From positions 96,001-160,000 of IMG/VR virus record IMGVR_UViG_3300045988_146774: a DNA stretch of 64,000 nt; one strand, 5' to 3'. The stretch's first letter is position 1. Each line of letters starts with the position of its first letter. Made by a program: the position numbers and the translations under genes. Below the pieces are notes generated by a model. It made no database searches and had not been told where the DNA came from. It saw only the letters and a list, made by a program, of their open reading frames with translations. Shown piece by piece: positions 3,756-64,000 of this stretch. Origin of the DNA: a virus.

Positions 3756-5087
3756 CTATTCAAATATTTCTTTAAGTTTTAAATATGCTTCATACAATTC
3801 TTGATTTTCTTTTGTTACGTTTTTTGGAAGTTTTTCATCTTCTTTTTTATAATCTGCGAGGATAGCTTGAGAAGGAGTCGTCACAGAACTAAGTCCCTCT
3901 TCTGTTGCATGTGTGTAAATGTTTTCTACACTGATGGCATTATGACCCATCATTAATGCGGTATTAATTACATTTGCTCCTTTTGATGAATTGGCAATTG
4001 TATCCATAGTATGTCTAAGAGAATGAATGCTTAATCCTCTCATTCCATTTCTTGTCATATGGACATCTCTGTCTACGCCAAGTTTGTCACAAAGAGTTTT
4101 AAATCCAACTTCTATCGTTTCATGAGTTCTTCTTTTGCCAGTGCTAAATACAGGGTAAAGTAAGTTGTCTGGATTATTTTTACAATAGATTTTCGTTTGT
4201 TCCATCATATATTGAGCACATTCTTTGGCTAAAGAAGACATGATAATAAATCTTGGTTTAGTATTTTTAGGAACCTTTGTATATCTTTCCAATCCTTTTG
4301 TTTTATCATTATCTATATATCTTGTTGCTTGAGATTCTACAACATATATTTTATTATTCTCGAAATCTATGTTGTCATTTCTAAGAGATGAAAATTCTCC
4401 AGATCTCAATCCTGTTTCAAGAATGAACATAACGACTACTGCATATTGCCCCATGTTATTTTTGTATGCATAATAAAATTTTTCGATGTCCTCTGGAGTA
4501 AATACTTCTTTTCTGTTTTTAACTTCTTCGTCTAATTTTTTGTCATATTCATCAATAATTTCTTTTTTTACTCTTGCTTGTTCTGCATAATTTTCTTTCA
4601 GAAGACTTCTATTGACTAACCATTTACAGCATCTTCGTGTTAATTGAATTGGGAAGCTGCAAGTTTTTCTGCTTTTTAATCCTAAAATAGTATCATAATA
4701 ACTTTCAAATTCTACTGCACTCAACATATGAAGTTGATATTTTGCTATTGGGAAATTATCAAAATTTGCCCTCATTGTATTAACATAGGAATGATACGTA
4801 CTTCCAGCAACAGTTGGTTTTACTTCTGTTTCTATATACTCATCCATATACTCACCGAAAGTTTTCTTTTTATCTACTTTGATATCTTTTCCCCTCTCGT
4901 ATTCCTTTTCCCAAGCATCTCTAGCCATTATAGATAATCGTCTTGCTTCTTTTTCTGTCTTGGCTGTTCGTTTAAATCTTTTTGGGTTTGCTGTTTTTGG
5001 ATTAAGATACTTTGCTTGGGTGATACATTCCCAAGAACCATTTTTTAATTGTCTGGTACTTCCTTCTCTGTTATCATTTTTATCCAT
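3756..5087 (-). CDS. int: tyrosine site-specific recombinase (phage integrase)
   Basis: TGLRSGE (box I Arg), HSLRHT (H-x-x-R) and GHNAISVENIYTH (His...Tyr). The ORF is open to 5093, but GGAGGG abuts that ATG, so the ATG at 5087 is the better-spaced start. Confidence 0.9.
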   Translation of the reverse strand: MDKNDNREGSTRQLKNGSWECITQAKYLNPKTANPKRFKRTAKTEKEARRLSIMARDAWEKEYERGKDIKVDKKKTFGEYMDEYIETEVKPTVAGSTYHSYVNTMRANFDNFPIAKYQLHMLSAVEFESYYDTILGLKSRKTCSFPIQLTRRCCKWLVNRSLLKENYAEQARVKKEIIDEYDKKLDEEVKNRKEVFTPEDIEKFYYAYKNNMGQYAVVVMFILETGLRSGEFSSLRNDNIDFENNKIYVVESQATRYIDNDKTKGLERYTKVPKNTKPRFIIMSSLAKECAQYMMEQTKIYCKNNPDNLLYPVFSTGKRRTHETIEVGFKTLCDKLGVDRDVHMTRNGMRGLSIHSLRHTMDTIANSSKGANVINTALMMGHNAISVENIYTHATEEGLSSVTTPSQAILADYKKEDEKLPKNVTKENQELYEAYLKLKEIFE

Positions 5088-5099
5088 TTTCATCCCTCC

Positions 5100-5168
5100 G
5101 ATATCACCATATCACTTTTTGAAAATTTAGTGATATCCTTCGCAAAAAGTGATATCACTTAGTGATAT
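5100..5168. promoter_or_regulatory. cluster of GTGATATC / GATATCAC repeats directly upstream of int (operator or arm-type sites)
   Basis: Copies at 5100-5107, 5109-5115, 5130-5137, the perfect 14-bp palindrome aagtgatatcactt at 5147-5160, and 5162-5168. Two more at 5366-5372 and 5379-5386. Confidence 0.5.
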
Positions 5169-8220: not shown

Positions 8221-10479
8221 TTATTCCTCATATTCCGTATCATCTAAATGATATACTCTGTCATGAATATCCCCATATCTTCCTTGATTTCCGCCATTTT
8301 TTGCAGTGCCGATGTATCCACAAACTCTAAATGCAATATCCATTGTTGTGTTATCTGTATTGCCACAATTCGGGCACTTCCATTTAAGAAGACCGTCTTC
8401 ATCCTCAACCAATGGAATGTCTCCATCGAATCCGCATTTTTCACAATAACAATTTTTTGTATTAATCTCTGCATACATAATATTATTATAAATAAATTTA
8501 ATCACTTCTAAAATTGCCGGAATATTATGCGTCATACTTGGAATCTCTATATATGAAATTGCTCCGCCAGGACTTAACTTCTGGAATTTTGATTCGATTC
8601 TAAGTTTCTCAAAAGCAGTAATTGGTTCAAAGACTGGAATATGATAAGAATTTGTTATATAATTTCTATCCTTGCCATCAATTTTTACAAACACATCTTT
8701 TCCGAATCTATTCTTTAAACTTTTGGCAAATTTATAAGTTGTCGATTCTAATGGTGTCCCATAAATGCTATAATCAATGTTCTCTTCTTCTTTCCATTGA
8801 TTACACTTGTCATTTAGGGCTTGCATAATTTTTAAACCAAATTCTTCTCCTACGCCTTCATCAGAATGAGAATGACCTGTCATAAATTTTACACACTCAT
8901 ATAATCCTGCATATCCAAGTGAAATGGTAGAATATCCATCATAAAGAAGACGACTAATTTTTTCATGTTTTTTCAAACGTGCTAATGCACCATATTGCCA
9001 AAGAATTGGAGCTACATCCGAAGAAGTTCCAAGTAAGCGGTTGTGTCTAGATTTTAATGCTTTATGGCATAACTCAGCTCGTTCGTCAAAAATCTCCCAA
9101 AATTTATTAATATCACCGTCCGAAGATAAAGCAATGTCGGGTAAGGAAATTGTTACAACCCCCTGATTGAAACGTCCATAATATTTATGTTTTGTTTTAT
9201 CAAAGTTTTTTGCATTAGAAATATTGCCAACTTTATCAGAGAACCTATCTACTGTAAGAAAAGATCTGCATCCCATACAAGTGAATACATCGCCTTTTAA
9301 TTCAAGCATAACCTTTTCAGAAATATAATCTGGTACAAGACGTTTTGAAGTGCACTCCGCTGCAAGTTTTGTTAAATACCAATATTTAGATTCTTCTGTA
9401 ATATTATCTTCTTCTAAAACATAAATGAGTTTTGGGAAAGCAGGAGCAATATAAACTCCATCTTCATTTTTAACACCAATCATTCTTTGACGAAGCATTT
9501 CTTCAATTAATAACGCTAAATCTGCTTTTTCTTGTTCGTTTTTTGCCTCGTTTAAATACATGAAAATTGTAATAAATGGGGCTTGTCCATTGGTTGTCAT
9601 TAGTGTGACTAATTGATATTGAATAGTTTGAATACCTTTTTCGATTTCTGAAGTAAGTCGTTCTTTTGTAATCTTATCAATAACATTGTTTAATTCTTCA
9701 CCCTCTAAAAGTGTATCAGCAATATCGCATAATTCATGTTCGACTTCATCACGAATTTTTTTTCTTGAGACATCTACGAATGGTGCTAAATGAGCTAATG
9801 ATATGCTTTGCCCCCCATATTGACTACTTGCAACTTGTGCAATAATTTGAGTCGTAACAGTACAAGCTGTAGATAAACTGTGCGGTTTTTCAATTAATGT
9901 TTCAGAAATAACCGTTCCATTCTGAAGCATATCTTCTAGATTAATTAAATCACAGTTATGTTCTTTCTGCATAAAGTAATCCGCATCATGGAAATGAATA
10001 ATGCCTTCATCATGAGCCTGAACAATCTCTGGTGGAAGAAGATACCTTCTTACAGCATCCGTACTTACAATCCCAGCCATATAATCACGTACAGTTGTAT
10101 TTAAAATTGGATTTTTATTAGCATTTTCATGCATCAAATAATCGTTATTGCCATTGACAAGATCAATTACATCATCGTCTGTTGTATTATTGCTTTCTCT
10201 CTGAAACTCTCTGGTACTTCTATAACCTTCGTAAGCCCTTGCTGTAAGACGTTGCTTTTTTGTAATCAGCTTATCGAATACCATTAATTCAATATCTGAA
10301 ATATCAACGCTTTCTTTTCCTTTGCATTCTTCGTGAATTTCTTTTGCAATGCTTTCTGCAATTTTAGGTTTAATAATTCCAGAACCGTTTTCCATAGCCT
10401 TCATGATTGCATTATAAATTTTTGATTCATCGAATGCTTGCTCGCTACAATCTCTTTTAACTACTAAAAGTTCGCTCAA
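8221..10479 (-). CDS. nrdD: anaerobic ribonucleoside-triphosphate reductase (class III)
   Basis: N-terminal ATP-cone (VVKRDCSEQAFDESKI), C-terminal Zn ribbon (CEKCGF...CPNCG) and glycyl-radical motif RVCGYIG. Confidence 0.95.
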   Translation of the reverse strand: MSELLVVKRDCSEQAFDESKIYNAIMKAMENGSGIIKPKIAESIAKEIHEECKGKESVDISDIELMVFDKLITKKQRLTARAYEGYRSTREFQRESNNTTDDDVIDLVNGNNDYLMHENANKNPILNTTVRDYMAGIVSTDAVRRYLLPPEIVQAHDEGIIHFHDADYFMQKEHNCDLINLEDMLQNGTVISETLIEKPHSLSTACTVTTQIIAQVASSQYGGQSISLAHLAPFVDVSRKKIRDEVEHELCDIADTLLEGEELNNVIDKITKERLTSEIEKGIQTIQYQLVTLMTTNGQAPFITIFMYLNEAKNEQEKADLALLIEEMLRQRMIGVKNEDGVYIAPAFPKLIYVLEEDNITEESKYWYLTKLAAECTSKRLVPDYISEKVMLELKGDVFTCMGCRSFLTVDRFSDKVGNISNAKNFDKTKHKYYGRFNQGVVTISLPDIALSSDGDINKFWEIFDERAELCHKALKSRHNRLLGTSSDVAPILWQYGALARLKKHEKISRLLYDGYSTISLGYAGLYECVKFMTGHSHSDEGVGEEFGLKIMQALNDKCNQWKEEENIDYSIYGTPLESTTYKFAKSLKNRFGKDVFVKIDGKDRNYITNSYHIPVFEPITAFEKLRIESKFQKLSPGGAISYIEIPSMTHNIPAILEVIKFIYNNIMYAEINTKNCYCEKCGFDGDIPLVEDEDGLLKWKCPNCGNTDNTTMDIAFRVCGYIGTAKNGGNQGRYGDIHDRVYHLDDTEYEE

Positions 10480-12178: not shown

Positions 12179-12433
12179 CTATTGTACCCCCACAAACCAC
12201 TTTGAAATGCGTCTTTCATACGAATTTAACGAATTTTCGACCCTCGAAAAAGCCCGCAAAATAGCGGTTTTTTGAAAACACGATAAAATGCCCATGATTG
12301 ACTTTCCGTCAACAATATATCTTCCGACGCAATAATCAATATTTATGTCAGAAAACGTGTTTGAAATGTCTGCAAACTCTTTAATATCGTCTAAAGTCGG
12401 TAATTTGATATTATATTCTCTAATTTGAATCAC
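12179..12433 (-). CDS. HPr-like domain protein (no phosphorylatable His region seen)
   Basis: INIDYCVGRYIVDGKSIMGILS matches the HPr core (..KSIMG..S). GTG start abuts the SD, so the start is uncertain. Confidence 0.4.
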   Translation of the reverse strand: MIQIREYNIKLPTLDDIKEFADISNTFSDINIDYCVGRYIVDGKSIMGILSCFQKTAILRAFSRVENSLNSYERRISKWFVGVQ

Positions 12434-14396
12434 CTCCTAAATATTTTTCAATGAAATCATCTTCAGACAAGATTGGCACTCCTAAATTTTTTGCTTTTTT
12501 ATTTTTGGATGACGTTGATTCCGCATCGTTATTAATAAGTGCCGTCGTTTTTGAGCTGACTGATCCAGCAACCTTACCTCCAAGAGATTCGATTTTCTCC
12601 TTTAGAGCATCACGGTTTTTAAATTTATTTAGTGAGCCAGTGATTACAAATGACATTCCGGATAGGCTTGTACCATTCTTCTTGTTGTTCTGCACATTAA
12701 ACTTAAATTCCTGAGACAATTCCCACATTTCCTCATAATGTTTTTCGAAATAATCATCCAAAGATTTTACAAGTGAATCGTCAATACCAGAGATTCTTTT
12801 GAAATATCTTGCATGATTTACAAGCATAATCTGAATAAACTTACCAATCATTCCGTCACATTCATTAGATATTGCCTTACTTGCTGCCTTACCAACCATA
12901 GGAATAGAAAGGCTGCATAAAAATCTATCAAATGTTGTGTGTCTACTATCTTCAATTGATTTCATGAGCTTATTTACTGATTTCGTTCCGAATCCTTCAA
13001 GAACTGACATCTTTGATTTAAAATCACTAAGATGATAGATATCTTTGATTGAGCTTAACCAACCAAGATTAATGAATTTCTGAATTGTTGCTTTTGATAA
13101 CCCATCGAGATCAAGAGCATTTTTGCTAACCGCATGTGTAAGTTTCCCAAGAAGTTTGCCCTTACAATCTAGATTAGTACAGATAAGAACCTCTGAGTCA
13201 TTCTCTTTTACTATTTTTGTTTCTCCTCCACAAACAGGGCATTTGTCCGGAATGGTAAAATTGCCAGACTTATCAATGCTGTCATGAACTTTTGGAATGA
13301 CCATATTTGATCTGTAGATTCTAATTCTATCGCCAATTCCTAACATCATATCCTTAATGTATGTAATATTATGAAGTGTGGCTCTTGTTGTAATAGCCCC
13401 AGACAAATTCACTGGATCAAAAATCGCAACTGGGTTAATAAGTCCTGTCTTAGAAGTATTCCATTCAATATCTCTAAGGGTTGTCTCAAATAATTCATCT
13501 TCATATTTATATGCTATGGAATGACGGAAGAATGTTTCTGTGCGCCCCATAGACTCTGCAATTTTGTAATCATCGGTAGCCATTACTGCACCATCATAAG
13601 GAATATTGTATTTATCAGCTGCTTCTCTTAAGCTTTCCAACATGTCTGGTAAATTCTCTCTGTCTTCAGAAGAGTTAGAATATGTATACATTGGAACTAT
13701 TTCAAATCCAAGTTCCTCTGCCCTTTTTAAATCTTTAAATACAGATTTATGTTCGAATCCTTTGATCACTCTCCATGCAATGAATCGCATATTCCTCTCA
13801 GCAGCTTCTGCGCTATCGAATAGCTGAAGCGAACCAGACACAAGATTTCTAGGATGCTTGTATTTTTTATCTTCTGGAAGAGGTTCGTTAATTTTTCTGA
13901 AAGAATCCCACCCAATAATTGTCTCTCCATCAATAATTAATTCATCTGTATAAGGAATAGTATGTGGAATATTCTTGATTGTAAGCACGTTTTGGAGGAC
14001 ATTAACACCTCGTACACCATCCCCCCTAGTTTCTGCACCGGTTAATTTACCATTAGAATAGTATAGAGAAGTGGTTAATCCATCACATTTTACAGATAAA
14101 AAACAATTTCTATTTCCTGCGAAATCTCTAAGTTCATCTATACTCTTTGTTTTGTCCAACGAAAGCATTGGGTGATTATGTACAACCTCTTCTAAATCTT
14201 CTGCTACAGTGTATCCAACATTTTGAGTTGGACTGTTATTGTAAATGATACCTGTTTGTTCTTCCAATGCTTTTAAGTCATCGTACATTTTATCCCATTC
14301 GTAATCAGAGATGACTGGTTCAGAATTGTAATATGCCTCAGAAGCTTTGTTAAGAGTATCAATTAAATAATTGATTCTTTTAATATCTTTTGTCAT
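12420..14396 (-). CDS. ligA: NAD+-dependent DNA ligase
   Basis: Adenylation motif SVKCDG, Zn finger CPVCGG...CTNLDCKGK, HhH region, C-terminal BRCT (FVITGSL...LGGKV). Confidence 0.95.
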   Translation of the reverse strand: MTKDIKRINYLIDTLNKASEAYYNSEPVISDYEWDKMYDDLKALEEQTGIIYNNSPTQNVGYTVAEDLEEVVHNHPMLSLDKTKSIDELRDFAGNRNCFLSVKCDGLTTSLYYSNGKLTGAETRGDGVRGVNVLQNVLTIKNIPHTIPYTDELIIDGETIIGWDSFRKINEPLPEDKKYKHPRNLVSGSLQLFDSAEAAERNMRFIAWRVIKGFEHKSVFKDLKRAEELGFEIVPMYTYSNSSEDRENLPDMLESLREAADKYNIPYDGAVMATDDYKIAESMGRTETFFRHSIAYKYEDELFETTLRDIEWNTSKTGLINPVAIFDPVNLSGAITTRATLHNITYIKDMMLGIGDRIRIYRSNMVIPKVHDSIDKSGNFTIPDKCPVCGGETKIVKENDSEVLICTNLDCKGKLLGKLTHAVSKNALDLDGLSKATIQKFINLGWLSSIKDIYHLSDFKSKMSVLEGFGTKSVNKLMKSIEDSRHTTFDRFLCSLSIPMVGKAASKAISNECDGMIGKFIQIMLVNHARYFKRISGIDDSLVKSLDDYFEKHYEEMWELSQEFKFNVQNNKKNGTSLSGMSFVITGSLNKFKNRDALKEKIESLGGKVAGSVSSKTTALINNDAESTSSKNKKAKNLGVPILSEDDFIEKYLGGDSN

Positions 14397-35547: not shown

Positions 35548-35949
35548 TTACTCTACAATCATCCAGTCTTCAGATAGCATATCTGTCTGAGACGGTGTCC
35601 ACGGCACTTTATTTTTAGGCGCATAAGGATTTTCTGTCTGTAATCCAGTAGTGTTGATATATATGAACGAATGCGTCATATAATTGAATGCTTCAATAGT
35701 TGTTCTTGCTGTAACTCTGTCGTATTCTTTCACTTCTTCACTCAGTTCAGAATACGGAATCATATCCGGGTGATCTGTAACTCCCTGTTTTTTCTTTTCT
35801 TCCCACCATGCGTTATGCACTGCTTCTGCAATAGTTTCAAGATTGACTTCTGGCGAATACATTTCCAGATAGATTCCTTTACCATTCCATCCTTTACGTG
35901 CCACTTTCTTACCATCTTTTAATGCTTCAATTGCTTTTCCAAAATTCAT
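35548..35949 (-). CDS. DUF2829 (Tad2-family) protein with an inserted RyR-like domain
   Basis: MNFGKAIEALKDGKKVARKGWNGKG at the N-terminus and WTPSQTDMLSEDWMIVE at the C-terminus are DUF2829 hallmarks. The middle AEAVHNAWWEEKKKQGVTDHPDMIPYSELSEEVKEYDR matches the RyR repeat pattern. Confidence 0.65.
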   Translation of the reverse strand: MNFGKAIEALKDGKKVARKGWNGKGIYLEMYSPEVNLETIAEAVHNAWWEEKKKQGVTDHPDMIPYSELSEEVKEYDRVTARTTIEAFNYMTHSFIYINTTGLQTENPYAPKNKVPWTPSQTDMLSEDWMIVE

Positions 35950-49076: not shown

Positions 49077-49192
49077 TACTCTAAGTCCATCTGTAGAAGT
49101 TTTTCTTTCATTCAGTAGTCATGAATGCTGCATGAAAGAAGCTAACAAATTAACTACATATGGAAGGAAAGTAGAGTAATTCTAGATAACAT

Positions 49193-49204
49193 GCTTACGT
49201 AAGC
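49193..49204. promoter_or_regulatory. perfect 12-bp palindrome gcttacgtaagc upstream of the methyltransferase pair
   Basis: Read directly in the 174-nt gap. Confidence 0.35.
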
Positions 49205-49250
49205 CTTGAAAAATAAGGCAATTGAGCAATATAAATGAAAGAAAAATTTC

Positions 49251-49655
49251 TTAACCTAACAAAGATGCAATATCATCAAGCTCAAGTTCTGTTTTCTTAT
49301 CCTCAGAAAGAAGCTTGTCCAATTTTGCTTCCATCCTTTTAAGATTTGCAATTTCATTTTTCACATTCAATACTTCCATCTTATTTTTTATATCTGAAAT
49401 CCAGTCATCTATACTGTATCCGGATAATTCTAAATCAGAAATTCCAAGATCATCTGATACCATCTTATATGAATGCAATCTTACTAGCATTATTTTTAAA
49501 CTAATCTCATCGAAAGTATTCAAATTGTAGGTTCCACCCAATAATAAAATACAGTTTGTAATAGGCACAAATCTTGTATTTTTGCCGGATAACTCCAACT
49601 TCTTTTTCTCAATCTTTTCTTTTAGTTCTAAGATTCTATCATCGTTCTTATTCAT
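49251..49655 (-). CDS. hypothetical coiled-coil protein
   Basis: The ATG at 49655 overlaps the upstream stop (GATGAATAA). The track's longer version overlaps by 95 nt. Confidence 0.5.
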   Translation of the reverse strand: MNKNDDRILELKEKIEKKKLELSGKNTRFVPITNCILLLGGTYNLNTFDEISLKIMLVRLHSYKMVSDDLGISDLELSGYSIDDWISDIKNKMEVLNVKNEIANLKRMEAKLDKLLSEDKKTELELDDIASLLG

Positions 49656-59949: not shown

Positions 59950-60849
59950 TTATTCACCAACCTCCGATACAATTTTCTTAAACATATCATCCACGGAATC
60001 AAGTAAATCATATCTCTTATCAAATGGAGCCGTAGAACTTCTAGCGAATTTACGTTCAACCATATCTATATAATATGTAGAACTTCCGTCGTCTCCTTGA
60101 TAAAATTCATTCCATTCTGAATCAGACAACAATCTCTTCACGTCGAGTTGCTCAATAGCAAGATTATCAAAACTAACAACTTTGAATTTATTCAAAATAT
60201 CCTGTAGATTTTCATATAACCATTGCTGATTTTCTTCTATTTCTTTTCTGTCAGAATCAAAATACTCATTACCTCGTCTCAAATGCTTATAGCCCAAAAT
60301 GAGCATCTTTAAATTATTATTCTCCATAGCTTGTACATCAGATGGTTTCAGAACTCCATTAATTACATGAATTACAATATTGGGATATTTTTTGACCTTT
60401 TTGATAAACTCTTGCGTTGGATTTACAAGAGATACACCTAGTCCATAAATAAGCTTTTCATTAATCATCTTATCTACCAAATCAATATTCTGTTCAAAAT
60501 GCACCTGGTTAAGAGTAATATTTGTGATAACTTTTAAATCTCTGAGCTTTTCTAAGAATGGGATTAAATCAGGATGCTCAAGAACGTTACCTCCTCCGAT
60601 TGCCACTTCTTGATATGGATGAAGTGTCTCGATAAATTTCTCGTTTAAGATATTTCCATGTTTGCCATTTTGTGTAGAACCTTCATGGCAAAACGGACAT
60701 CTCATTGAACAAGAATTGGTAATCTTAATATCCATATTTCTTGCAAAATCAAATTTAAATTCATCATCCTCTGTTTCACAAATGCGAGTACCGTCTGAAA
60801 ATATTTTGTTAATCGTGTTTCCATTCTTGTACATGCCTAATAATTCCAT
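59950..60849 (-). CDS. radical SAM enzyme (299 aa)
   Basis: CSMRCPFC (CxxxCxxC) and IGGGNVLEHPDL. Confidence 0.75.
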   Translation of the reverse strand: MELLGMYKNGNTINKIFSDGTRICETEDDEFKFDFARNMDIKITNSCSMRCPFCHEGSTQNGKHGNILNEKFIETLHPYQEVAIGGGNVLEHPDLIPFLEKLRDLKVITNITLNQVHFEQNIDLVDKMINEKLIYGLGVSLVNPTQEFIKKVKKYPNIVIHVINGVLKPSDVQAMENNNLKMLILGYKHLRRGNEYFDSDRKEIEENQQWLYENLQDILNKFKVVSFDNLAIEQLDVKRLLSDSEWNEFYQGDDGSSTYYIDMVERKFARSSTAPFDKRYDLLDSVDDMFKKIVSEVGE

Positions 60850-60875
60850 TCTAAAAATCCTCCATATTTTAAAAT

Positions 60876-61247
60876 TTAATCATGACCATAATATCCAAAA
60901 GCTACAATTCCTTCACCTTTTGGTGTAGTATAACTTTGTTCAAATGTTTCATACCAATTATCGTTGAAAAATTCTTCTGATGTTTTTATTCTTTCTTCTT
61001 CAAAAATACCATCTACTACTTCTTCGTCATTCCAATCGACATAAGGATACATAAGAGATCCATTCCATGACTTCTTTTCTTGCAGTTCTTTTATTACTTC
61101 TTCTCTTGAAACAAATTTATCCTTGTCTTCCCAATAAAGCAGCTCTCCATTTTCCCATTTTTCATATTCATCAGAACTACACATTGTTAAACTATGTACC
61201 GAACTACTATTCGTTTCAAATACTCCACGTCTAATTTGTTTTTTCAT
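60876..61247 (-). CDS. ETNSSSxH-motif paralogue 3 (123 aa)
   Basis: N-terminus MKKQIRRGVFETNSSSVHSL is shared with the two upstream genes. Confidence 0.6.
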   Translation of the reverse strand: MKKQIRRGVFETNSSSVHSLTMCSSDEYEKWENGELLYWEDKDKFVSREEVIKELQEKKSWNGSLMYPYVDWNDEEVVDGIFEEERIKTSEEFFNDNWYETFEQSYTTPKGEGIVAFGYYGHD

Positions 61248-61250
61248 ATG

Positions 61251-61829
61251 TTAATTTCCTTTCTCATAAATTTCGTATTTGTCAAATTCAGGTTTTAAAT
61301 CACCATATAATGTATAAGTTCCCCAATCTGTTACTTCTTTGCCCTCTGCGATAAACATTTTATCTCTATATGAATCACCATTATCATTTCCTGTAATAAT
61401 AATCGAATTGCCAAAAAGATATCTAAACAACTTGTCTGAATCAGACAATAAATCATCTAACCAAGATTTTAATTCTCCTGCATGATCGATATAATCATAA
61501 CCAATGTCATAATAATAATGTTTTTCCTTACCATATTCATATGATTTAACATTTAATTCTGGGATTGTATATGTGATTTCATACTCATCTAGAATATCTT
61601 TTAATCGAGTAAGTTTTTCATCAGCATATTCTTTGTCCATCGAAAGAATTGCTGTAATCAAATATGAAGCTTTATTATCAAGATCTCCATATTCTTCACA
61701 TTCCCATCCATATTCTCCTGTATGAAAATCAATATGGTCTTTTAGTTCGTACCCATCTTTTGCAATACAAATTGCATGAGTACTGGACGAATTGGTTTCA
61801 TAAACGCTTCTGCGGATTTGTCTTCTCAT
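61251..61829 (-). CDS. ETNSSSxH-motif paralogue 2 (192 aa)
   Basis: MRRQIRRSVYETNSSSTHAI. Also shares G(W/R)...DK..YL with paralogue 1. Confidence 0.6.
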   Translation of the reverse strand: MRRQIRRSVYETNSSSTHAICIAKDGYELKDHIDFHTGEYGWECEEYGDLDNKASYLITAILSMDKEYADEKLTRLKDILDEYEITYTIPELNVKSYEYGKEKHYYYDIGYDYIDHAGELKSWLDDLLSDSDKLFRYLFGNSIIITGNDNGDSYRDKMFIAEGKEVTDWGTYTLYGDLKPEFDKYEIYEKGN

Positions 61830-61845
61830 ATTTATATTTCCTTTC

Positions 61846-62559
61846 TTAATCTACTGGATATTCATAATCGATTGCATCCATATCAATTAATCCTGTGTTT
61901 TTAATATCGTCCCAATAACAATATTCATCCCCATCTTGAATAACTACATATTTTCTATTCGTCAGATATTCTTCCAACGATACATTTTCTTCTTCAAGAA
62001 AACCACTAAGCATGTCTTCATCTACGCATCCTGTATATGGTTTATCAAAATGGAAATATCCATTATCTCCTTCCCAATATTCAATTGTATCAATTCCCCA
62101 ATCTCTTTCTTTTTGTTCAAGCCACTCATTAAGCTCGTCTTCTGTCTTACCATATTCCTGAGCGTATTCACTATCTTTATTTGCCGGATGATCTTTATCT
62201 GCAAACGAATCGGAAATCATAGGAATAACAATCCTTTTAAGACCTGGAACATATTTCAATGCAAGTGATTCAAGTTCTTTATATTTCTCATCATTGTATT
62301 CTCTAACTAACGAGGCACATGCATACAGCCATTTATCATGAAAATTGCCTAATGCTCTAAATGGACTTCTACCAAAATTCATATCATGATCCCAAATATG
62401 CCACTCACAGTCTTTTTCTCCGGTATTTCTGTCATCCCACAAATAGAAATCTTTTAATATCTCTTCCGATGTGTAATGTTCGTCCTTTTTCATAACACAA
62501 AGAGAATGCTGACTGGAAGAATTTGTTTCAAAAACATTTGTTCTAATTTGTCTTTTCAT
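61846..62559 (-). CDS. ETNSSSxH-motif paralogue 1 (237 aa)
   Basis: From the ATG at 62559: MKRQIRTNVFETNSSSQHSL. The track's ATG at 62589 lies within the predicted promoter. Confidence 0.6.
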   Translation of the reverse strand: MKRQIRTNVFETNSSSQHSLCVMKKDEHYTSEEILKDFYLWDDRNTGEKDCEWHIWDHDMNFGRSPFRALGNFHDKWLYACASLVREYNDEKYKELESLALKYVPGLKRIVIPMISDSFADKDHPANKDSEYAQEYGKTEDELNEWLEQKERDWGIDTIEYWEGDNGYFHFDKPYTGCVDEDMLSGFLEEENVSLEEYLTNRKYVVIQDGDEYCYWDDIKNTGLIDMDAIDYEYPVD

Positions 62560-62587
62560 ATTCGTTAATCCTTTCTTTTTGTCACCC

Positions 62588-62625
62588 ATATATTGTATGT
62601 GTCAATTAATCAAAATACAATATAT
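62588..62625. promoter_or_regulatory. palindromic promoter-like element (copy 3)
   Basis: atatattgtat-N16-atacaatatat. TTGTAT, 17 nt, TACAAT reads identically on both strands. Confidence 0.5.
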
Positions 62626-62636
62626 AGTATTCATAA

Positions 62637-62662
62637 ACAGATGAAATTTCGATTTCATCTGT
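62637..62662 (-). terminator. Rho-independent terminator after the Nudix gene
   Basis: 11-bp stem ACAGATGAAAT / ATTTCATCTGT with a 4-nt loop. TTTAT follows on the - strand and TTCTATTCTTT on the + strand. Confidence 0.65.
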
Positions 62663-62674
62663 TTCTATTCTTTG

Positions 62675-63250
62675 CTATTCCCCATATATAATTTCCATTA
62701 GCATAAGAGCTGTTTTCATGCATACTTTTTCTTCTTTTAGAATTCTCTTGATCTCATCTTTACCAGCTAATACGACATTAATCTCTTCTGTTAATTCGTT
62801 TTTGCCTGTACTCACCATTCCAGATATTTCTCCACAAATGATAGAACAACTTTCATCCGTCATTCCGGCTGAGGAATAGAATGCTTTGTTAGAAAATTTT
62901 GTCTTCATTGGTACAAAATCCAATCCGGTTTCTTCTTTCATTTCTCTTATTGCTGTTTCATAAATATCTTCTCCATCATCAACAAGACCAGCCGGAAGTT
63001 CATAAAGATAATCTCCAATTGCATATCTGTATTGTTTAATCAATACGACCTTGCAATCTTCTGTAATTCCAACCATAGCCACCGCATCTGGCTTTTCTTC
63101 ATGATTAATTGCTTTCAGATCATCAACCTGCTTTGCCCTAGAAGCCACTAGATATTCTAATGGCTTCCCTTCTTTATTCTCTGCATGTAATTTATAGAGG
63201 TTTAGAAATTTCTCATCTGTCATCTTCTCCACTGCACTAATCTTACCCAT
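62675..63250 (-). CDS. Nudix hydrolase, ADP-ribose pyrophosphatase-like
   Basis: Nudix box GLVDDGEDIYETAIREMKEETG. N-terminal region is like NudF-type ADPRases. Confidence 0.8.
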   Translation of the reverse strand: MGKISAVEKMTDEKFLNLYKLHAENKEGKPLEYLVASRAKQVDDLKAINHEEKPDAVAMVGITEDCKVVLIKQYRYAIGDYLYELPAGLVDDGEDIYETAIREMKEETGLDFVPMKTKFSNKAFYSSAGMTDESCSIICGEISGMVSTGKNELTEEINVVLAGKDEIKRILKEEKVCMKTALMLMEIIYGE

Positions 63251-63253
63251 AAT

Positions 63254-63991
63254 TTATTCTCCTGTGTATTCATAATGTTCCATCGGTTTCAATTTAAAAA
63301 GATTCTTCTCATGCATCTCATCAATCTTTCTCTTTACATTCTGATCATCGATTTCGCCTGTGCGAATATATTTATCAAGAACTTCATATGAAAAACCAAA
63401 ACTTTCCTCGTCTGTCTTGCCACACAATCCATCGATCGGAGTCTTATTTACAAATTCATCTGGAAGACCAAGTTCTTTTGCAACTGCTCTTACTTCTGTT
63501 TTTGTAAGCATTTCAATCGGAGCAAAAGACCCAAATCCATCGCCTCCATATGTTGCGAATCCGATATGATCTTCACTCAGATTACAGTTGCACGTCGGAA
63601 TACCATTACAACACTGTGCATAAAAGAATAATTCTGACATTCTTACTCTTGCCGGTAAATTAATATTCGCCTGTTCTGTTTCTTCAATACCTTGTTTGGT
63701 ATTTTCTTTTCTAAGAGTATCGACTGTATGTCCAATATTAACGATAGAATATCTAATTCCCAAATAATGAACTAAATTTAAGCTAACATTAATATCCGGC
63801 TGAATATGATAAGGCATTAACACTCCTCGCACCCTATCTTCACCAAGAGCTTTTACACATAATGCTGCTACTGTTGACGAATCGATGCCACCAGAAATAC
63901 CGATAACTGCATTCTGATTTCCGCCTAATTCATCAAAATATTTTTTAATCCACTCAACCAATTCTTCTGTAACTTTCTTAACGTCAAACAT
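63254..63991 (-). CDS. nadE: NH3-dependent NAD+ synthetase
   Basis: PP-loop GISGGIDSS. The ATG at 63991 gives MFDVKKVTEELVEWIKKYF. The ORF runs to the window edge, so the start cannot be confirmed. Confidence 0.8.
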   Translation of the reverse strand: MFDVKKVTEELVEWIKKYFDELGGNQNAVIGISGGIDSSTVAALCVKALGEDRVRGVLMPYHIQPDINVSLNLVHYLGIRYSIVNIGHTVDTLRKENTKQGIEETEQANINLPARVRMSELFFYAQCCNGIPTCNCNLSEDHIGFATYGGDGFGSFAPIEMLTKTEVRAVAKELGLPDEFVNKTPIDGLCGKTDEESFGFSYEVLDKYIRTGEIDDQNVKRKIDEMHEKNLFKLKPMEHYEYTGE

Positions 63992-64000
63992 ATTACACAC

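What the first reader, a model, noticed from the sequence alone, without database searches (positions are those of the whole stretch)
62675..64000. Phage-encoded NAD module: ADP-ribose pyrophosphatase-type Nudix plus NAD+ synthetase NadE at the window edge
A Nudix box (GLVDDGEDIYETAIREMKEETG) with an ADPRase-like N-terminus lies directly downstream of a PP-loop NadE (GISGGIDSS). NAD+ depletion is the killing mechanism of several defence systems (Thoeris, DSR, SIR2-containing systems), and phages are known to carry NAD+ reconstitution pathways (NARP1, NARP2) and NadV/NatV-type salvage genes. NadE plus a Nudix ADPRase is not either of those described gene pairs. More pathway genes may lie just beyond position 64000. 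Combined with the Tad2-family genes, this suggests a multi-layer response to NAD-targeting immunity.
Basis: partly seen in the sequence, partly recalled or inferred. Interest (0 to 1): 0.62.

Follow-up and report, generated by a model that had tools for sequence, protein, structure and literature searches.

The report
Phage nicotinamide-to-NAD salvage operon with Nudix
The two flagged genes are the tail end of a five-enzyme operon in a 172-kb gut phage, copied from its Lachnospiraceae-type hosts, that should turn nicotinamide back into the cofactor NAD+ and break down ADP-ribose; this is a plausible but untested way to keep NAD+ up during infection, and similar phage clusters have already been reported.

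Summary
Observation confirmed. On the minus strand, NadE (63254-63991) is followed after 3 nt by an ADP-ribose-pyrophosphatase-type Nudix (62675-63250).

The predicted extension past the window edge is also real. The same tightly packed operon continues upstream with PncB, a stand-alone NadR-type adenylyltransferase and a PncA nicotinamidase. Together these give the full Preiss-Handler route from nicotinamide to NAD+.

The four NAD genes copy a chromosomal operon of Lachnospiraceae. Butyrivibrio has nrtR-pncA-AT-pncB-nadE in the same order, and phage PncB is 74-83% identical to the bacterial proteins. The phage lacks the NrtR repressor.

The Nudix is a gene of the phage backbone. In related gut phages it stands alone or closes NAD modules of three architectures: pncA-AT-pncB-nadE, pncB-nadE, and pncA-pncB-nadD-nadE.

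The phage also encodes NAD-consuming LigA and Tpt1, plus one Tad2-like/RyR protein. It has no Prs/Adps and no NadV, so the module is neither NARP1, NARP2 nor NARP3.

Phage Preiss-Handler clusters were already described computationally (Li et al. 2024), and this scan has met them in other genomes. None has been tested.

Verdict: a real, intact module and a new variant of a known kind. A counter-defence role is plausible but unproven. Moderate interest.

The parts
62635..62664 (.). 13-bp perfect palindromic hairpin directly after the Nudix stop. It marks the likely 3' end of the operon. An 85-nt gap separates it from the next gene.
   Evidence: Terminator-like scan and sequence reading.
62675..63250 (-). 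Nudix hydrolase of the ADP-ribose/ADP-sugar pyrophosphatase type, 191 aa, the last gene of the operon. Nudix box G88-L110 with E103, E106 and E107. An invariant SSAGMTDE motif lies at 126-133.
63254..63991 (-). NadE, a single-domain (NH3-dependent type) NAD+ synthetase, 245 aa, with PP-loop S33-GGIDS.
   Evidence: TIGR00552 166 bits, above cut-off. Pfam NAD_synthase 1.4e-48. PDB 2e18 1.2e-36. PHROG NAD synthetase.
63993..64000 (-). The last 8 bases of PncB (stop codon region). The rest of the operon runs off the window edge. Below, window-equivalent coordinates equal G000 coordinate minus 96000, which equals L002 coordinate plus 61000.
- PncB, nicotinate phosphoribosyltransferase, 409 aa: 63993-65222.
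- Stand-alone NadR-type adenylyltransferase, 170 aa, H14-KGH and I140-SGTEIR motifs, no kinase domain, the only CTP_transf_like gene in the genome: 65238-65750.
- PncA-type nicotinamidase, 170 aa, D9/K95/C121 triad and D50/H52/H69 metal site: 65754-66266.
- 91-aa ORF of unknown function, overlapping the PncA start: 66266-66541.
- 57-aa hydrophobic ORF with a strong ribosome-binding site: 66528-66701.
- Upstream boundary, the motif ACAATATATGG overlapping a hairpin: 66722-66755.
All lie on the minus strand.
   Evidence: - PncB: NF003704 470.7 bits and TIGR01514 406.6 bits, both above cut-off. 74-83% identity to Lachnospiraceae PncB.
- Adenylyltransferase.
- PncA.
- Small ORFs.
- Motif: 5 hits in L002 against 0.47 expected, 0 of 200 shuffles. 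Sequence.
- Gene junctions.

Best explanation
The flagged pair is the 3' end of one transcription unit. Its order is small ORF, 91-aa ORF, pncA, NadR-type adenylyltransferase, pncB, nadE, Nudix.

The four NAD genes are a host-derived Preiss-Handler salvage operon of the Lachnospiraceae type, stripped of its ADP-ribose-sensing NrtR repressor and placed under phage control.

Proposed reactions during infection:
- PncA deamidates nicotinamide to nicotinate.
- PncB joins nicotinate to host PRPP to give NaMN.
- The adenylyltransferase makes NaAD.
- NadE amidates NaAD to NAD+.
- The terminal Nudix cleaves ADP-ribose, the other product of NAD+ breakdown, to AMP and ribose-5-phosphate. The host can convert ribose-5-phosphate back to PRPP.

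The net effect is to keep NAD+ available when it is consumed by the phage's own LigA and Tpt1, or destroyed by NADase defence effectors (Thoeris, SIR2, DSR types).

Shown here: gene identities, intact catalytic motifs, operon packing, host origin, and conservation of the arrangement.

Inferred: every enzymatic activity, the substrate of the adenylyltransferase and of the Nudix, and the benefit to the phage.
For: Gene identities:
- PncB and NadE score above curated equivalog cut-offs.
- The PncA catalytic triad and metal site are conserved.
- The adenylyltransferase has HxGH and ISxTxxR motifs.
- The Nudix has a full Nudix box and an ADPRase fold.

Operon structure:
- Gaps between genes are -1 to 15 nt, with ribosome-binding sites.
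- Hairpins and a recurrent motif sit at both ends.

Host origin:
- Butyrivibrio chromosomes carry the same gene order: nrtR-pncA-AT-pncB-nadE and AT-pncB-nadE.
- PncB nests among Lachnospiraceae sequences.
- Module GC is 30-36% and GC3 is 15-28%, matching the phage's 32% GC. This argues for an established gene set, not fresh contamination.

Conservation:
- The five-gene operon is present in L004, L005 and L145.
- Orthologous Nudix genes close pncB-nadE modules in about 16 IMG/VR contigs.
- They also close pncA-pncB-nadD-nadE modules.
- A NadD-type enzyme occupies the adenylyltransferase slot in that third group. This suggests the NadR-type enzyme does the NaMN step here.

Context in the same phage:
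- It encodes NAD-dependent LigA, Tpt1 and a Tad2-like/RyR protein.
- NAD+ reconstitution is a proven phage counter-defence in other systems: NARP1/2 (10.1101/2024.02.11.579819) and NARP3 (PMC13464706).
Against: - No activity, expression or phenotype data exist.
- NadR-type adenylyltransferases are, from my own knowledge, NMN-preferring. The hosts keep a canonical NadD elsewhere. The NaMN step may therefore depend on the host or run in a different order.
- The phage has no PRPP synthetase, so it depends on host PRPP.
- The route costs about four ATP over four steps. It may be too slow to outrun an activated NADase.
- The Nudix occurs without NAD genes in close relatives (L006, L007, L147) and in a 98%-complete genome lacking PncB.
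- The same four-gene operon occurs without the Nudix in another large phage (L137). The link between Nudix and module could therefore reflect inherited gene order or an insertion hot spot.
- The Nudix has Ala where ADPRases usually have the signature Pro (SAG instead of SPG). It also falls below all NCBIfam equivalog cut-offs.
Confidence: 0.6

Rival explanations
1. Plain auxiliary metabolic operon. The phage copies its host's niacin salvage operon without the repressor, only to raise NAD+ supply for its own NAD-consuming replication and repair enzymes (LigA, Tpt1) and for host fermentation. It has no specific link to NAD-depleting immunity.
For: - LigA and Tpt1 are encoded by the same phage.
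- The operon is a straight copy of a housekeeping host operon.
- It sits in the replication and nucleotide-metabolism arm, with NrdD and LigA.
- Li et al. 2024 read such clusters mainly as NAD supply.
- A NadR-type NMN adenylyltransferase could directly recycle the NMN released by LigA (inference).
Against: - The phage also carries a Tad2-like/RyR protein. Members of those families neutralise Thoeris signals.
- The pathway starts from nicotinamide and is joined to an ADP-ribose hydrolase. These are exactly the two products of NADase effectors.
- The module is accessory, present or absent among close relatives. That pattern is typical of counter-defence genes but does not prove a counter-defence role.
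Confidence: 0.3
2. The Nudix is an independent backbone gene that is co-transcribed with the NAD module only by position. Its real job would be something other than feeding NAD salvage. Possibilities include destroying ADPR-derived immune signals or ADP-ribosylation by-products, acting as a general ADP-sugar or dinucleotide 'housecleaning' enzyme, or limiting NAD(H)/NaAD levels.
For: - Orthologues stand alone in L006, L007, L147/L148 and in group 4.
- Among G000, L004 and L005, the Nudix is 86-93% identical while the four NAD genes are 97-99% identical, which indicates separate histories.
- L145 has an extra gene between nadE and the Nudix.
- L137 has the operon without a Nudix.
- The region upstream of the Nudix is hypervariable and holds a TnpB in L007.
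- ADPRase-fold enzymes have broad specificities, for example NUDT5, the B. methanolicus activator and an NDP-sugar hydrolase.
Against: - The Nudix is the immediate 3' neighbour of nadE in three different module architectures.
- Group-4 relatives keep an adenylyltransferase 3 kb away.
- ADPRase-NMNAT coupling is an established theme (NadM-Nudix, KVP40 NatV).
- As of May 2026 the RyDEP authors state that no enzyme that degrades 2'/3'cADPR was known before RyDEP.
Confidence: 0.3
3. Francisella-type order of steps. NadE would act as an NMN synthetase (NaMN to NMN), and the NadR-type enzyme would then adenylate NMN to NAD+, so that NaAD is never made.
For: - The adenylyltransferase belongs to the NadR NMNAT family.
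- In Francisella, replacement of NadD by an NMN-using adenylyltransferase goes with a NadE turned NMN synthetase (PMC3376133).
- Francisella NadE (3fiu) is among the closer solved relatives, 79 bits.
- The hosts keep NadD elsewhere, yet still place this adenylyltransferase between pncA and pncB.
Against: - The phage NadE is closer to the P. horikoshii and C. jejuni NAD synthetases (130 and 107 bits) than to the Francisella enzyme.
- M. jannaschii single-domain NadE and archaeal NadM work through NaAD.
- In the sister group, the adenylyltransferase slot holds a NadD-type enzyme.
- I could not read the specificity determinants, because the Sorci 2009 paper is not held.
Confidence: 0.15
4. Passenger DNA or an assembly/binning artefact. 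On this reading the NAD genes are bacterial sequence wrongly joined to a phage contig, or a recent non-functional capture.
For: PncB is up to 83% identical to bacterial PncB.
Against: - The operon lies inside a 171,896-bp record with terminal repeats.
- It recurs at the same place in independent assemblies.
- All five ORFs are intact, with conserved catalytic residues.
- GC and GC3 match the phage, not a typical Lachnospiraceae genome.
- The other proteins are only 32-59% identical to the bacterial ones.
Confidence: 0.02

Closest known systems
Preiss-Handler gene clusters of gut 'NAD-jumbo phages' (pncB-nadD-nadE, e.g. Kuafu_71; Li et al. 2024, PMC11662467)
   Same: Both are phage-encoded, clustered Preiss-Handler enzymes in animal or human gut phages. 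Both are read as NAD+ supply or possible counter-defence, both were found computationally, and neither has been tested.
   Different: - This phage is 172 kb, not a jumbo phage, and its genes are of Lachnospiraceae type rather than from Bacteroidota phages.
- The operon includes pncA, so it starts from nicotinamide.
- It uses a stand-alone NadR-type adenylyltransferase instead of NadD.
- It ends in an ADPRase-type Nudix. That paper does not mention Nudix.
Chromosomal nrtR-pncA-AT-pncB-nadE operons of Butyrivibrio and other Lachnospiraceae (loci L055, L053, L058, L141)
   Same: The gene families and gene order are the same. Identities are PncB 72-77%, PncA 49%, NadE 46-47% and adenylyltransferase 32-54%.
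   Different: - The phage copy lacks the NrtR repressor.
- It has two small ORFs of unknown function at its head and a catalytic Nudix at its tail.
- Its base composition has converged on that of the phage.
NARP2 of Vibrio phage KVP40 (NadV + NatV, an NMNAT-Nudix fusion)
   Same: Both rebuild NAD+ from nicotinamide, and both pair an adenylyltransferase with an ADPRase-type Nudix.
   Different: - NARP2 is the two-step amidated route through NMN. Here it is the four-step deamidated route.
- G000 has no NadV or NAMPT.
- The Nudix is a separate gene. It is closer to stand-alone NudF/NUDT5-type enzymes than to NadM-Nudix.
NARP1 (Adps + Namat) and NARP3 (PnuC + NadR-like Bas30_86)
   Same: All have the goal of restoring NAD+ in the infected cell. 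The adenylyltransferase shares the NadR NMNAT fold with Bas30_86. The PDB chain 9x6f, labelled nicotinamide-nucleotide adenylyltransferase, matched at E 8e-4. Its identity with Bas30_86 is my assumption.
   Different: - There is no Prs-like Adps.
- There is no second NAPRTase-family gene.
- The adenylyltransferase has no kinase domain.
- PnuC was not searched for.
Stand-alone ADP-ribose / ADP-sugar pyrophosphatases (B. methanolicus Nudix/ACT 8wv3, human NUDT5, Mtb Rv1700, E. coli NudF)
   Same: Both have the two-domain fold over the full length, a complete Nudix box and a conserved xGxxDE segment after it.
   Different: - Sequence identity in the fold-search alignments is only 20-24%.
- Ala128 replaces the signature Pro.
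- The substrate is unknown.

Membership tests
Nudix hydrolase superfamily | Nudix box GX5EX7REUXEEXGU with the catalytic glutamates | tested here: met
   G88-L110 fits the pattern, with R102, E103, E106 and E107. Pfam NUDIX scores 50 bits against a cut-off of 21.
ADP-ribose pyrophosphatase subfamily (NudF/YffH/NUDT5 type) | Two-domain architecture: an N-terminal beta-sheet dimerisation domain plus the Nudix fold | tested here: met
   The AlphaFold model has pLDDT 83. All Foldseek top-50 hits are ADPR/ADP-sugar pyrophosphatases, with TM up to 0.80 over about 200 columns.
ADP-ribose pyrophosphatase subfamily (NudF/YffH/NUDT5 type) | Score above curated family cut-offs (NudE, ADPRase, TIGR00052) | tested here: not met
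   Scores are 47.5 against 169, 41.3 against 248, and 39 against 79.6 bits. These are still the best-scoring families.
ADP-ribose pyrophosphatase subfamily (NudF/YffH/NUDT5 type) | Signature proline about 15-16 residues after the Nudix box (Dunn et al. 1999, recalled from memory) | tested here: not met
   The aligned segment reads SSAGMTDE, where the Bacillus enzyme has TSPGFADE. Ala128 is invariant in 19 phage homologues.
ADP-ribose pyrophosphatase subfamily (NudF/YffH/NUDT5 type) | Hydrolysis of ADP-ribose to AMP plus ribose-5-phosphate | not testable with these tools
   This needs an enzyme assay.
NH3-dependent NAD+ synthetase (NadE, single-domain) | PP-loop SGGxDS, a score above the equivalog-domain cut-off, and no glutaminase domain | tested here: met
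   S33-GGIDS is present. TIGR00552 scores 166.2 against 63.65. The protein is 245 aa and aligns end to end with 250-aa enzymes.
NH3-dependent NAD+ synthetase (NadE, single-domain) | Substrate is NaAD rather than NaMN | not testable with these tools
   Both specificities exist in this family (PMC3376133). The paper with the determinants is not held.
Nicotinate phosphoribosyltransferase (PncB) | Score above curated cut-offs, with both NAPRTase domains | tested here: met
   NF003704 scores 470.7 against 379, and TIGR01514 scores 406.6 against 269.6. Pfam finds NAPRTase_N plus NAPRTase.
Nicotinamidase (PncA) | Asp-Lys-Cys catalytic triad plus the Asp/His/His metal site of nicotinamidases | tested here: met
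   The alignment to P. horikoshii PncA 1im5 gives D9, C121 and D50/H52/H69. K95 aligns with the family lysine in the 3eef alignment. Reference residue numbers are from my own knowledge.
Nicotinamidase (PncA) | Score above the NCBIfam equivalog cut-off | tested here: not met
   PRK11609 scores 35.9 against 174 bits. Only the Pfam Isochorismatase domain passes.
NadR-type NMN adenylyltransferase | HxGH and ISxTxxR motifs, with closest relatives being NadR NMNAT domains | tested here: met
   H14-KGH and I140-SGTEIR are present. L. lactis NadR 6gye matches at 1.2e-19 over residues 15-179. The PHROG hit is NMNAT.
NadR-type NMN adenylyltransferase | Fused ribosylnicotinamide kinase domain (full NadR) | tested here: not met
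   The protein is 170 aa and covers only the first half of TIGR01526, scoring 66.5 against 341 bits.
NARP1 | Prs-like Adps plus NAMPT-like Namat | tested here: not met
   G000 has no Pribosyltran_N match. Its only NAPRTase-family gene is a bona fide PncB.
NARP2 | NadV (NAMPT) plus NatV (NMNAT-Nudix fusion) | tested here: not met
   There is no second NAPRTase/NAMPT-family gene. The adenylyltransferase and the Nudix are separate genes, with two genes between them.
Phage Preiss-Handler cluster (NAD-jumbo phage type) | pncB, an NaMN adenylyltransferase and nadE clustered in a phage genome | tested here: inconclusive
   All three gene classes are adjacent. However, the adenylyltransferase is NadR-type, not NadD, and its use of NaMN is unproven. 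The genome is below the 200-kb jumbo threshold.

The most novel reading that the evidence does not exclude
The Nudix-terminated Preiss-Handler operon may be a fourth, dedicated phage NAD+ reconstitution pathway. On this reading it recycles both products of NADase defence effectors using only canonical enzymes:
- nicotinamide passes through PncA, PncB, the adenylyltransferase and NadE;
- ADP-ribose passes through the Nudix to ribose-5-phosphate, and then through host Prs to PRPP.

It would protect gut Lachnospiraceae phages from Thoeris, SIR2 and DSR-type immunity. The Nudix would be an obligatory partner, which would explain why it closes three different module architectures. A further twist that the evidence does not exclude is a Francisella-like order of steps, with NadE acting as an NMN synthetase.
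Probability: 0.3. Interest if true: 0.6.

Novelty: new variant of a known kind. Interest (0 to 1): 0.42.

Why it matters
NAD+ depletion is one of the most common outcomes of bacterial anti-phage immunity. Three phage NAD+-restoring pathways have been proven so far, and all use the amidated or ADPR-based routes.

The deamidated four-step route has only been noted in genome surveys. Showing that it also works as a counter-defence would:
- add a pathway type;
- show that phages can simply appropriate a host housekeeping operon minus its repressor;
- explain a widespread accessory module in abundant human and animal gut phages of Lachnospiraceae.

This locus is a compact, intact candidate for that test. 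It comes with natural controls: close relatives with the Nudix only, with pncB-nadE only, or with a NadD-type enzyme in place of the NadR-type one.

It also bears on gut niacin/NAD economy, because the hosts are major butyrate producers.

Tried and rejected
- **GenBank phages (INPHARED).** There is no close relative. Only 14 records hold any PncB, and the Nudix hits are 29-48% identical, mostly below 37%. The human-faecal fragment MT835946 carries pncB-nadE only.
- **NARP1, NARP2 and NARP3 membership.** Rejected, because G000 has no Prs/Adps, no NadV and no kinase domain.
- **MutT, RppH or NudC-type function for the Nudix.** Rejected as the leading reading. Those families score 1e-3 to 1e-5 against 1e-10 to 1e-12 for ADPRases, and every fold hit is an ADPRase.
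- **Macro domain in G000.** None found.
- **Independent acquisition of the module next to the Nudix.** IQ-TREE (C20) placed phage PncBs in two clades among Lachnospiraceae, forcing at least 2 changes. FastTree, with two more phage groups added, recovered a single phage clade with support 0.90, and the NadE tree was unresolved. I therefore do not claim independent acquisitions.
- **Host identification through a 580-kb contig that carries a Nudix-only relative.** The flank beyond the integrase is still phage-like, and the record is not held for genome searches. The host is inferred only from PncB affinity.
- **Specificity determinants of NMN synthetase versus NAD synthetase.** The key paper (PMC2651253) is not held.
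- **Sigma-70-type promoter scan.** It found fewer sites than in shuffles and was not informative.
- **Report form.** They are now described under the clipped PncB part.
Full report
**1. What is in the sequence**

The window is G000:96001-160000 of a 171,896-bp virus record with direct terminal repeats. Two ORFs lie on the minus strand at its right edge.

The first, 63254-63991, is a 245-aa single-domain NAD+ synthetase.
- TIGR00552 scores 166 bits against a cut-off of 64, and Pfam NAD_synthase gives 1.4e-48.
- The PP-loop is S33-GGIDS.
- The closest solved relatives are the roughly 250-aa NH3-dependent enzymes of P. horikoshii, C. jejuni and F. tularensis.

Three nucleotides after its stop begins a 191-aa Nudix protein, 62675-63250, with a complete Nudix box at G88-L110.
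- Its best family and PDB hits are all ADP-ribose pyrophosphatases.
- An AlphaFold model built on 19 phage homologues has pLDDT 83.
- The model superposes over its whole length on two-domain ADPR/ADP-sugar pyrophosphatases. TM is 0.80 to NUDT5, and all 50 best hits are of this type.

**2. The unit is larger than the finding**

I read the rest of the genome. On the same strand, directly upstream and beyond base 64000, lie three more enzymes. Window-equivalent coordinates are G000 coordinate minus 96000.
- PncB, 409 aa, 63993-65222, scores above the cut-off of two curated models.
- A 170-aa stand-alone adenylyltransferase, 65238-65750, is closest to the NMNAT domain of L. lactis NadR. It has HxGH and ISxTxxR motifs and no kinase domain.
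- A 170-aa isochorismatase-fold protein, 65754-66266, aligns with P. horikoshii nicotinamidase. The Asp/Lys/Cys triad and the Asp/His/His metal site are conserved.

Gene junctions are -1 to 15 nt, with ribosome-binding sites. Two small ORFs of unknown function (57 aa, hydrophobic; 91 aa) head the unit.

A hairpin follows the Nudix. The motif ACAATATATGG sits just upstream of this unit and of both neighbouring units. It gives 5 hits in 14.9 kb against 0.47 expected.

Taken together, the enzymes are the full Preiss-Handler route from nicotinamide: PncA, PncB, an adenylyltransferase and NadE, plus an ADP-ribose hydrolase.

**3. Where the genes came from**

PncB is 74-83% identical to PncB of Lachnospiraceae and related Clostridia. 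Among 80 bacterial loci, 60 have pncA directly upstream and 26 have nadE downstream.

Butyrivibrio chromosomes carry nrtR-pncA-AT-pncB-nadE in exactly the phage order.
- NrtR was confirmed by its Nudix and winged-helix domains.
- A Butyrivibrio MAG has AT-pncB-nadE, with an adenylyltransferase 54% identical to the phage one.
- These bacteria also keep a canonical NadD elsewhere.

The phage copy lacks NrtR. Its GC (30-36%) and GC3 (15-28%) match the 32% GC phage genome. I conclude that it is an established, host-derived operon that has lost its ADP-ribose-responsive repressor.

**4. The Nudix and the module in related phages**

- IMG/VR and public assemblies hold the same five-gene operon in L004, L005 and L145. 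Among the IMG/VR relatives L004 and L005, the four NAD genes are 97-99% identical to G000, while the Nudix is only 86-93% identical.
- Orthologous Nudix genes stand alone in L006 (80%), L007 (61%; a 98%-complete 177-kb genome without PncB), L147/L148 (82%) and a 46% group. The 46% group has a cytidylyltransferase-like gene 3 kb away.
- In about 16 contigs with a 57-60% Nudix, the module is pncB-nadE-Nudix. An adenylyltransferase-like gene and, in two of the five contigs searched, an isochorismatase-family gene lie elsewhere on the contig. A macro-domain gene lies 1.7 kb downstream.
- In a third group with a 66% Nudix, whose protein was seen on 53 contigs or more, the module is pncA-pncB-nadD-nadE-Nudix with a NadD-type (GSFNPITNAH) enzyme.
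- A 223-kb phage-like contig has pncA-AT-pncB-nadE without the Nudix, next to a PARP-domain gene.

The Nudix is thus a backbone gene that closes NAD modules of three architectures.

Whether the modules were gained once and rearranged, or several times, is unresolved. IQ-TREE forces at least two origins of phage PncB. FastTree with more phage taxa gives one phage clade at support 0.90.

The region upstream of the Nudix is hypervariable and holds a TnpB in L007. An insertion hot spot is therefore a live alternative to functional coupling.

**5. Mechanism**

Shown here: gene identities, intact motifs, packing, origin and conservation.

Inferred:
- Nicotinamide goes to nicotinate (PncA).
- Nicotinate plus host PRPP gives NaMN (PncB). 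The phage has no Prs.
- NaMN goes to NaAD (adenylyltransferase) and then to NAD+ (NadE). The ammonia released by PncA balances the ammonia used by NadE.
- The Nudix turns ADP-ribose into AMP and ribose-5-phosphate, which host Prs can return to PRPP.

The weak link is the adenylyltransferase. NadR-type enzymes are NMN-preferring (my knowledge), and it is the only such gene in G000. Three possibilities remain:
- it also takes NaMN, which is supported by the NadD-type enzyme in the same slot of the sister group;
- host NadD does that step;
- the order is Francisella-like, with NadE as NMN synthetase.

**6. What the module is for**

The same phage encodes several NAD-related proteins.
- NAD-dependent DNA ligase at 12420-14396.
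- Tpt1/KptA at G000 4627-5118. Both enzymes consume NAD+.
- One Tad2-like protein with an inserted RyR domain at 35548-35949. Members of both families bind or cleave Thoeris cADPR signals.

The module starts from the two products of NADase effectors, and it is accessory among close relatives. These facts fit a counter-defence role, but they do not exclude plain NAD supply. I give about 0.6 to NAD+ maintenance that includes a defence-relevant benefit, and 0.3 to supply only.

**7. Comparison with what is known**

- NARP1, NARP2 and NARP3 membership fails on defining genes.
- The 2022 survey of viral NAD-ADPr systems covers NadV, NadM, NadR and Nudix, but has no NadE, PncA or PncB.
- Li et al. 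2024 reported pncB-nadD-nadE clusters, and phage pncA, in gut jumbo phages. They did so computationally and without mentioning a Nudix.
- PHROGs already holds phage NAD synthetase and NMNAT families, and an unannotated family that matches this PncA.
- Earlier notes of this scan report similar operons in other gut and rumen phages. I did not re-test those.

I therefore class this as a new variant of a known kind. The new points are:
- the NadR-type adenylyltransferase in the NadD slot;
- the direct copy of a Butyrivibrio-type operon without NrtR;
- the conserved terminal ADPRase across three architectures.

**8. Limits**

There are no expression or activity data. The host is inferred only from gene affinity.

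Noticed in passing
window 35548-35949 (-): A 133-aa protein in which a Tad2-like domain (PF11195, 75 bits) is interrupted by a RyR domain (PF02026, 31 bits, above cut-off). Both families include phage proteins that sequester or cleave Thoeris cADPR signals. It is the only Tad2-like gene in the genome at E<=0.001.
   Followed up: partly
window 12420-14396 (-) and 8221-10479 (-): An NAD-dependent DNA ligase (LigA, 658 aa, with adenylation, OB, Zn-finger and BRCT domains) and an anaerobic ribonucleotide reductase NrdD. The ligase consumes NAD+ stoichiometrically and releases NMN.
   Followed up: partly
G000 4627-5118 (-), outside the window (locus L136): Tpt1/KptA RNA 2'-phosphotransferase (PF01885, 157 bits). 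This is another NAD+-consuming enzyme of the same phage.
   Followed up: partly
window 59950-62589 (-); L119 5770-6645: Directly downstream of the Nudix lie three paralogues with an ETNSSSxH N-terminus and then a radical SAM gene. In the 46%-identity Nudix group, a gene with a sub-threshold radical SAM match (23.3 vs 29.5 bits) and a CxxxCxxC motif sits immediately upstream of the Nudix. The Nudix and radical SAM neighbourhood may therefore be conserved.
   Followed up: no
window 62586-62596 (-); L002 5745-5755 and 6791-6801 (-): The motif ACAATATATGG recurs 10-45 nt upstream of the first start codon of three successive minus-strand units, next to hairpins. It is a candidate phage-specific promoter or boundary element.
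   Followed up: partly
L137 (ENA ERZ27268250 k141_121951, 223-kb contig): A different, larger phage-like contig carries pncA-AT(64%)-pncB(84%)-nadE(58%) in the same order but without the Nudix. A PARP-catalytic-domain protein lies 3.5 kb downstream, and an adenylosuccinate synthase lies upstream.
   Followed up: no
L100 9313-9789 (+) and relatives: Phages with the pncB-nadE-Nudix module carry a macro-domain protein (PF01661, 30 bits) 1.7 kb downstream of the Nudix. G000 has no macro domain.
   Followed up: partly
L007 4265-5374 (+): An IS605-family TnpB (OrfB_IS605 plus Cas12f1-like TNB) is inserted in the variable region upstream of the Nudix in a 177-kb relative.
   Followed up: no
L014 (CAKVCR010000001.1, labelled uncultured Odoribacter sp. 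MAG): This 77-kb contig has phage-like genes (a large methylase/helicase, an HNH-like protein, a 387-aa protein whose near-identical homologue in L100 matches GmrSD_N) and the pncB-nadE-Nudix module. It clusters with IMG/VR phage contigs, so it is probably a phage contig mis-binned into a Bacteroidota MAG.
   Followed up: no
G000 2115-2663, 49126-49641, 99900-100505; L002 13831-14767: There are three tyrosine-recombinase-like genes in the genome, and a PemK-like/HTH pair near the right end. It is unclear whether the phage is temperate.
   Followed up: no
L145 5733-6008 (+): In one close relative, an extra 91-aa gene of unknown function sits between nadE and the Nudix.
   Followed up: no
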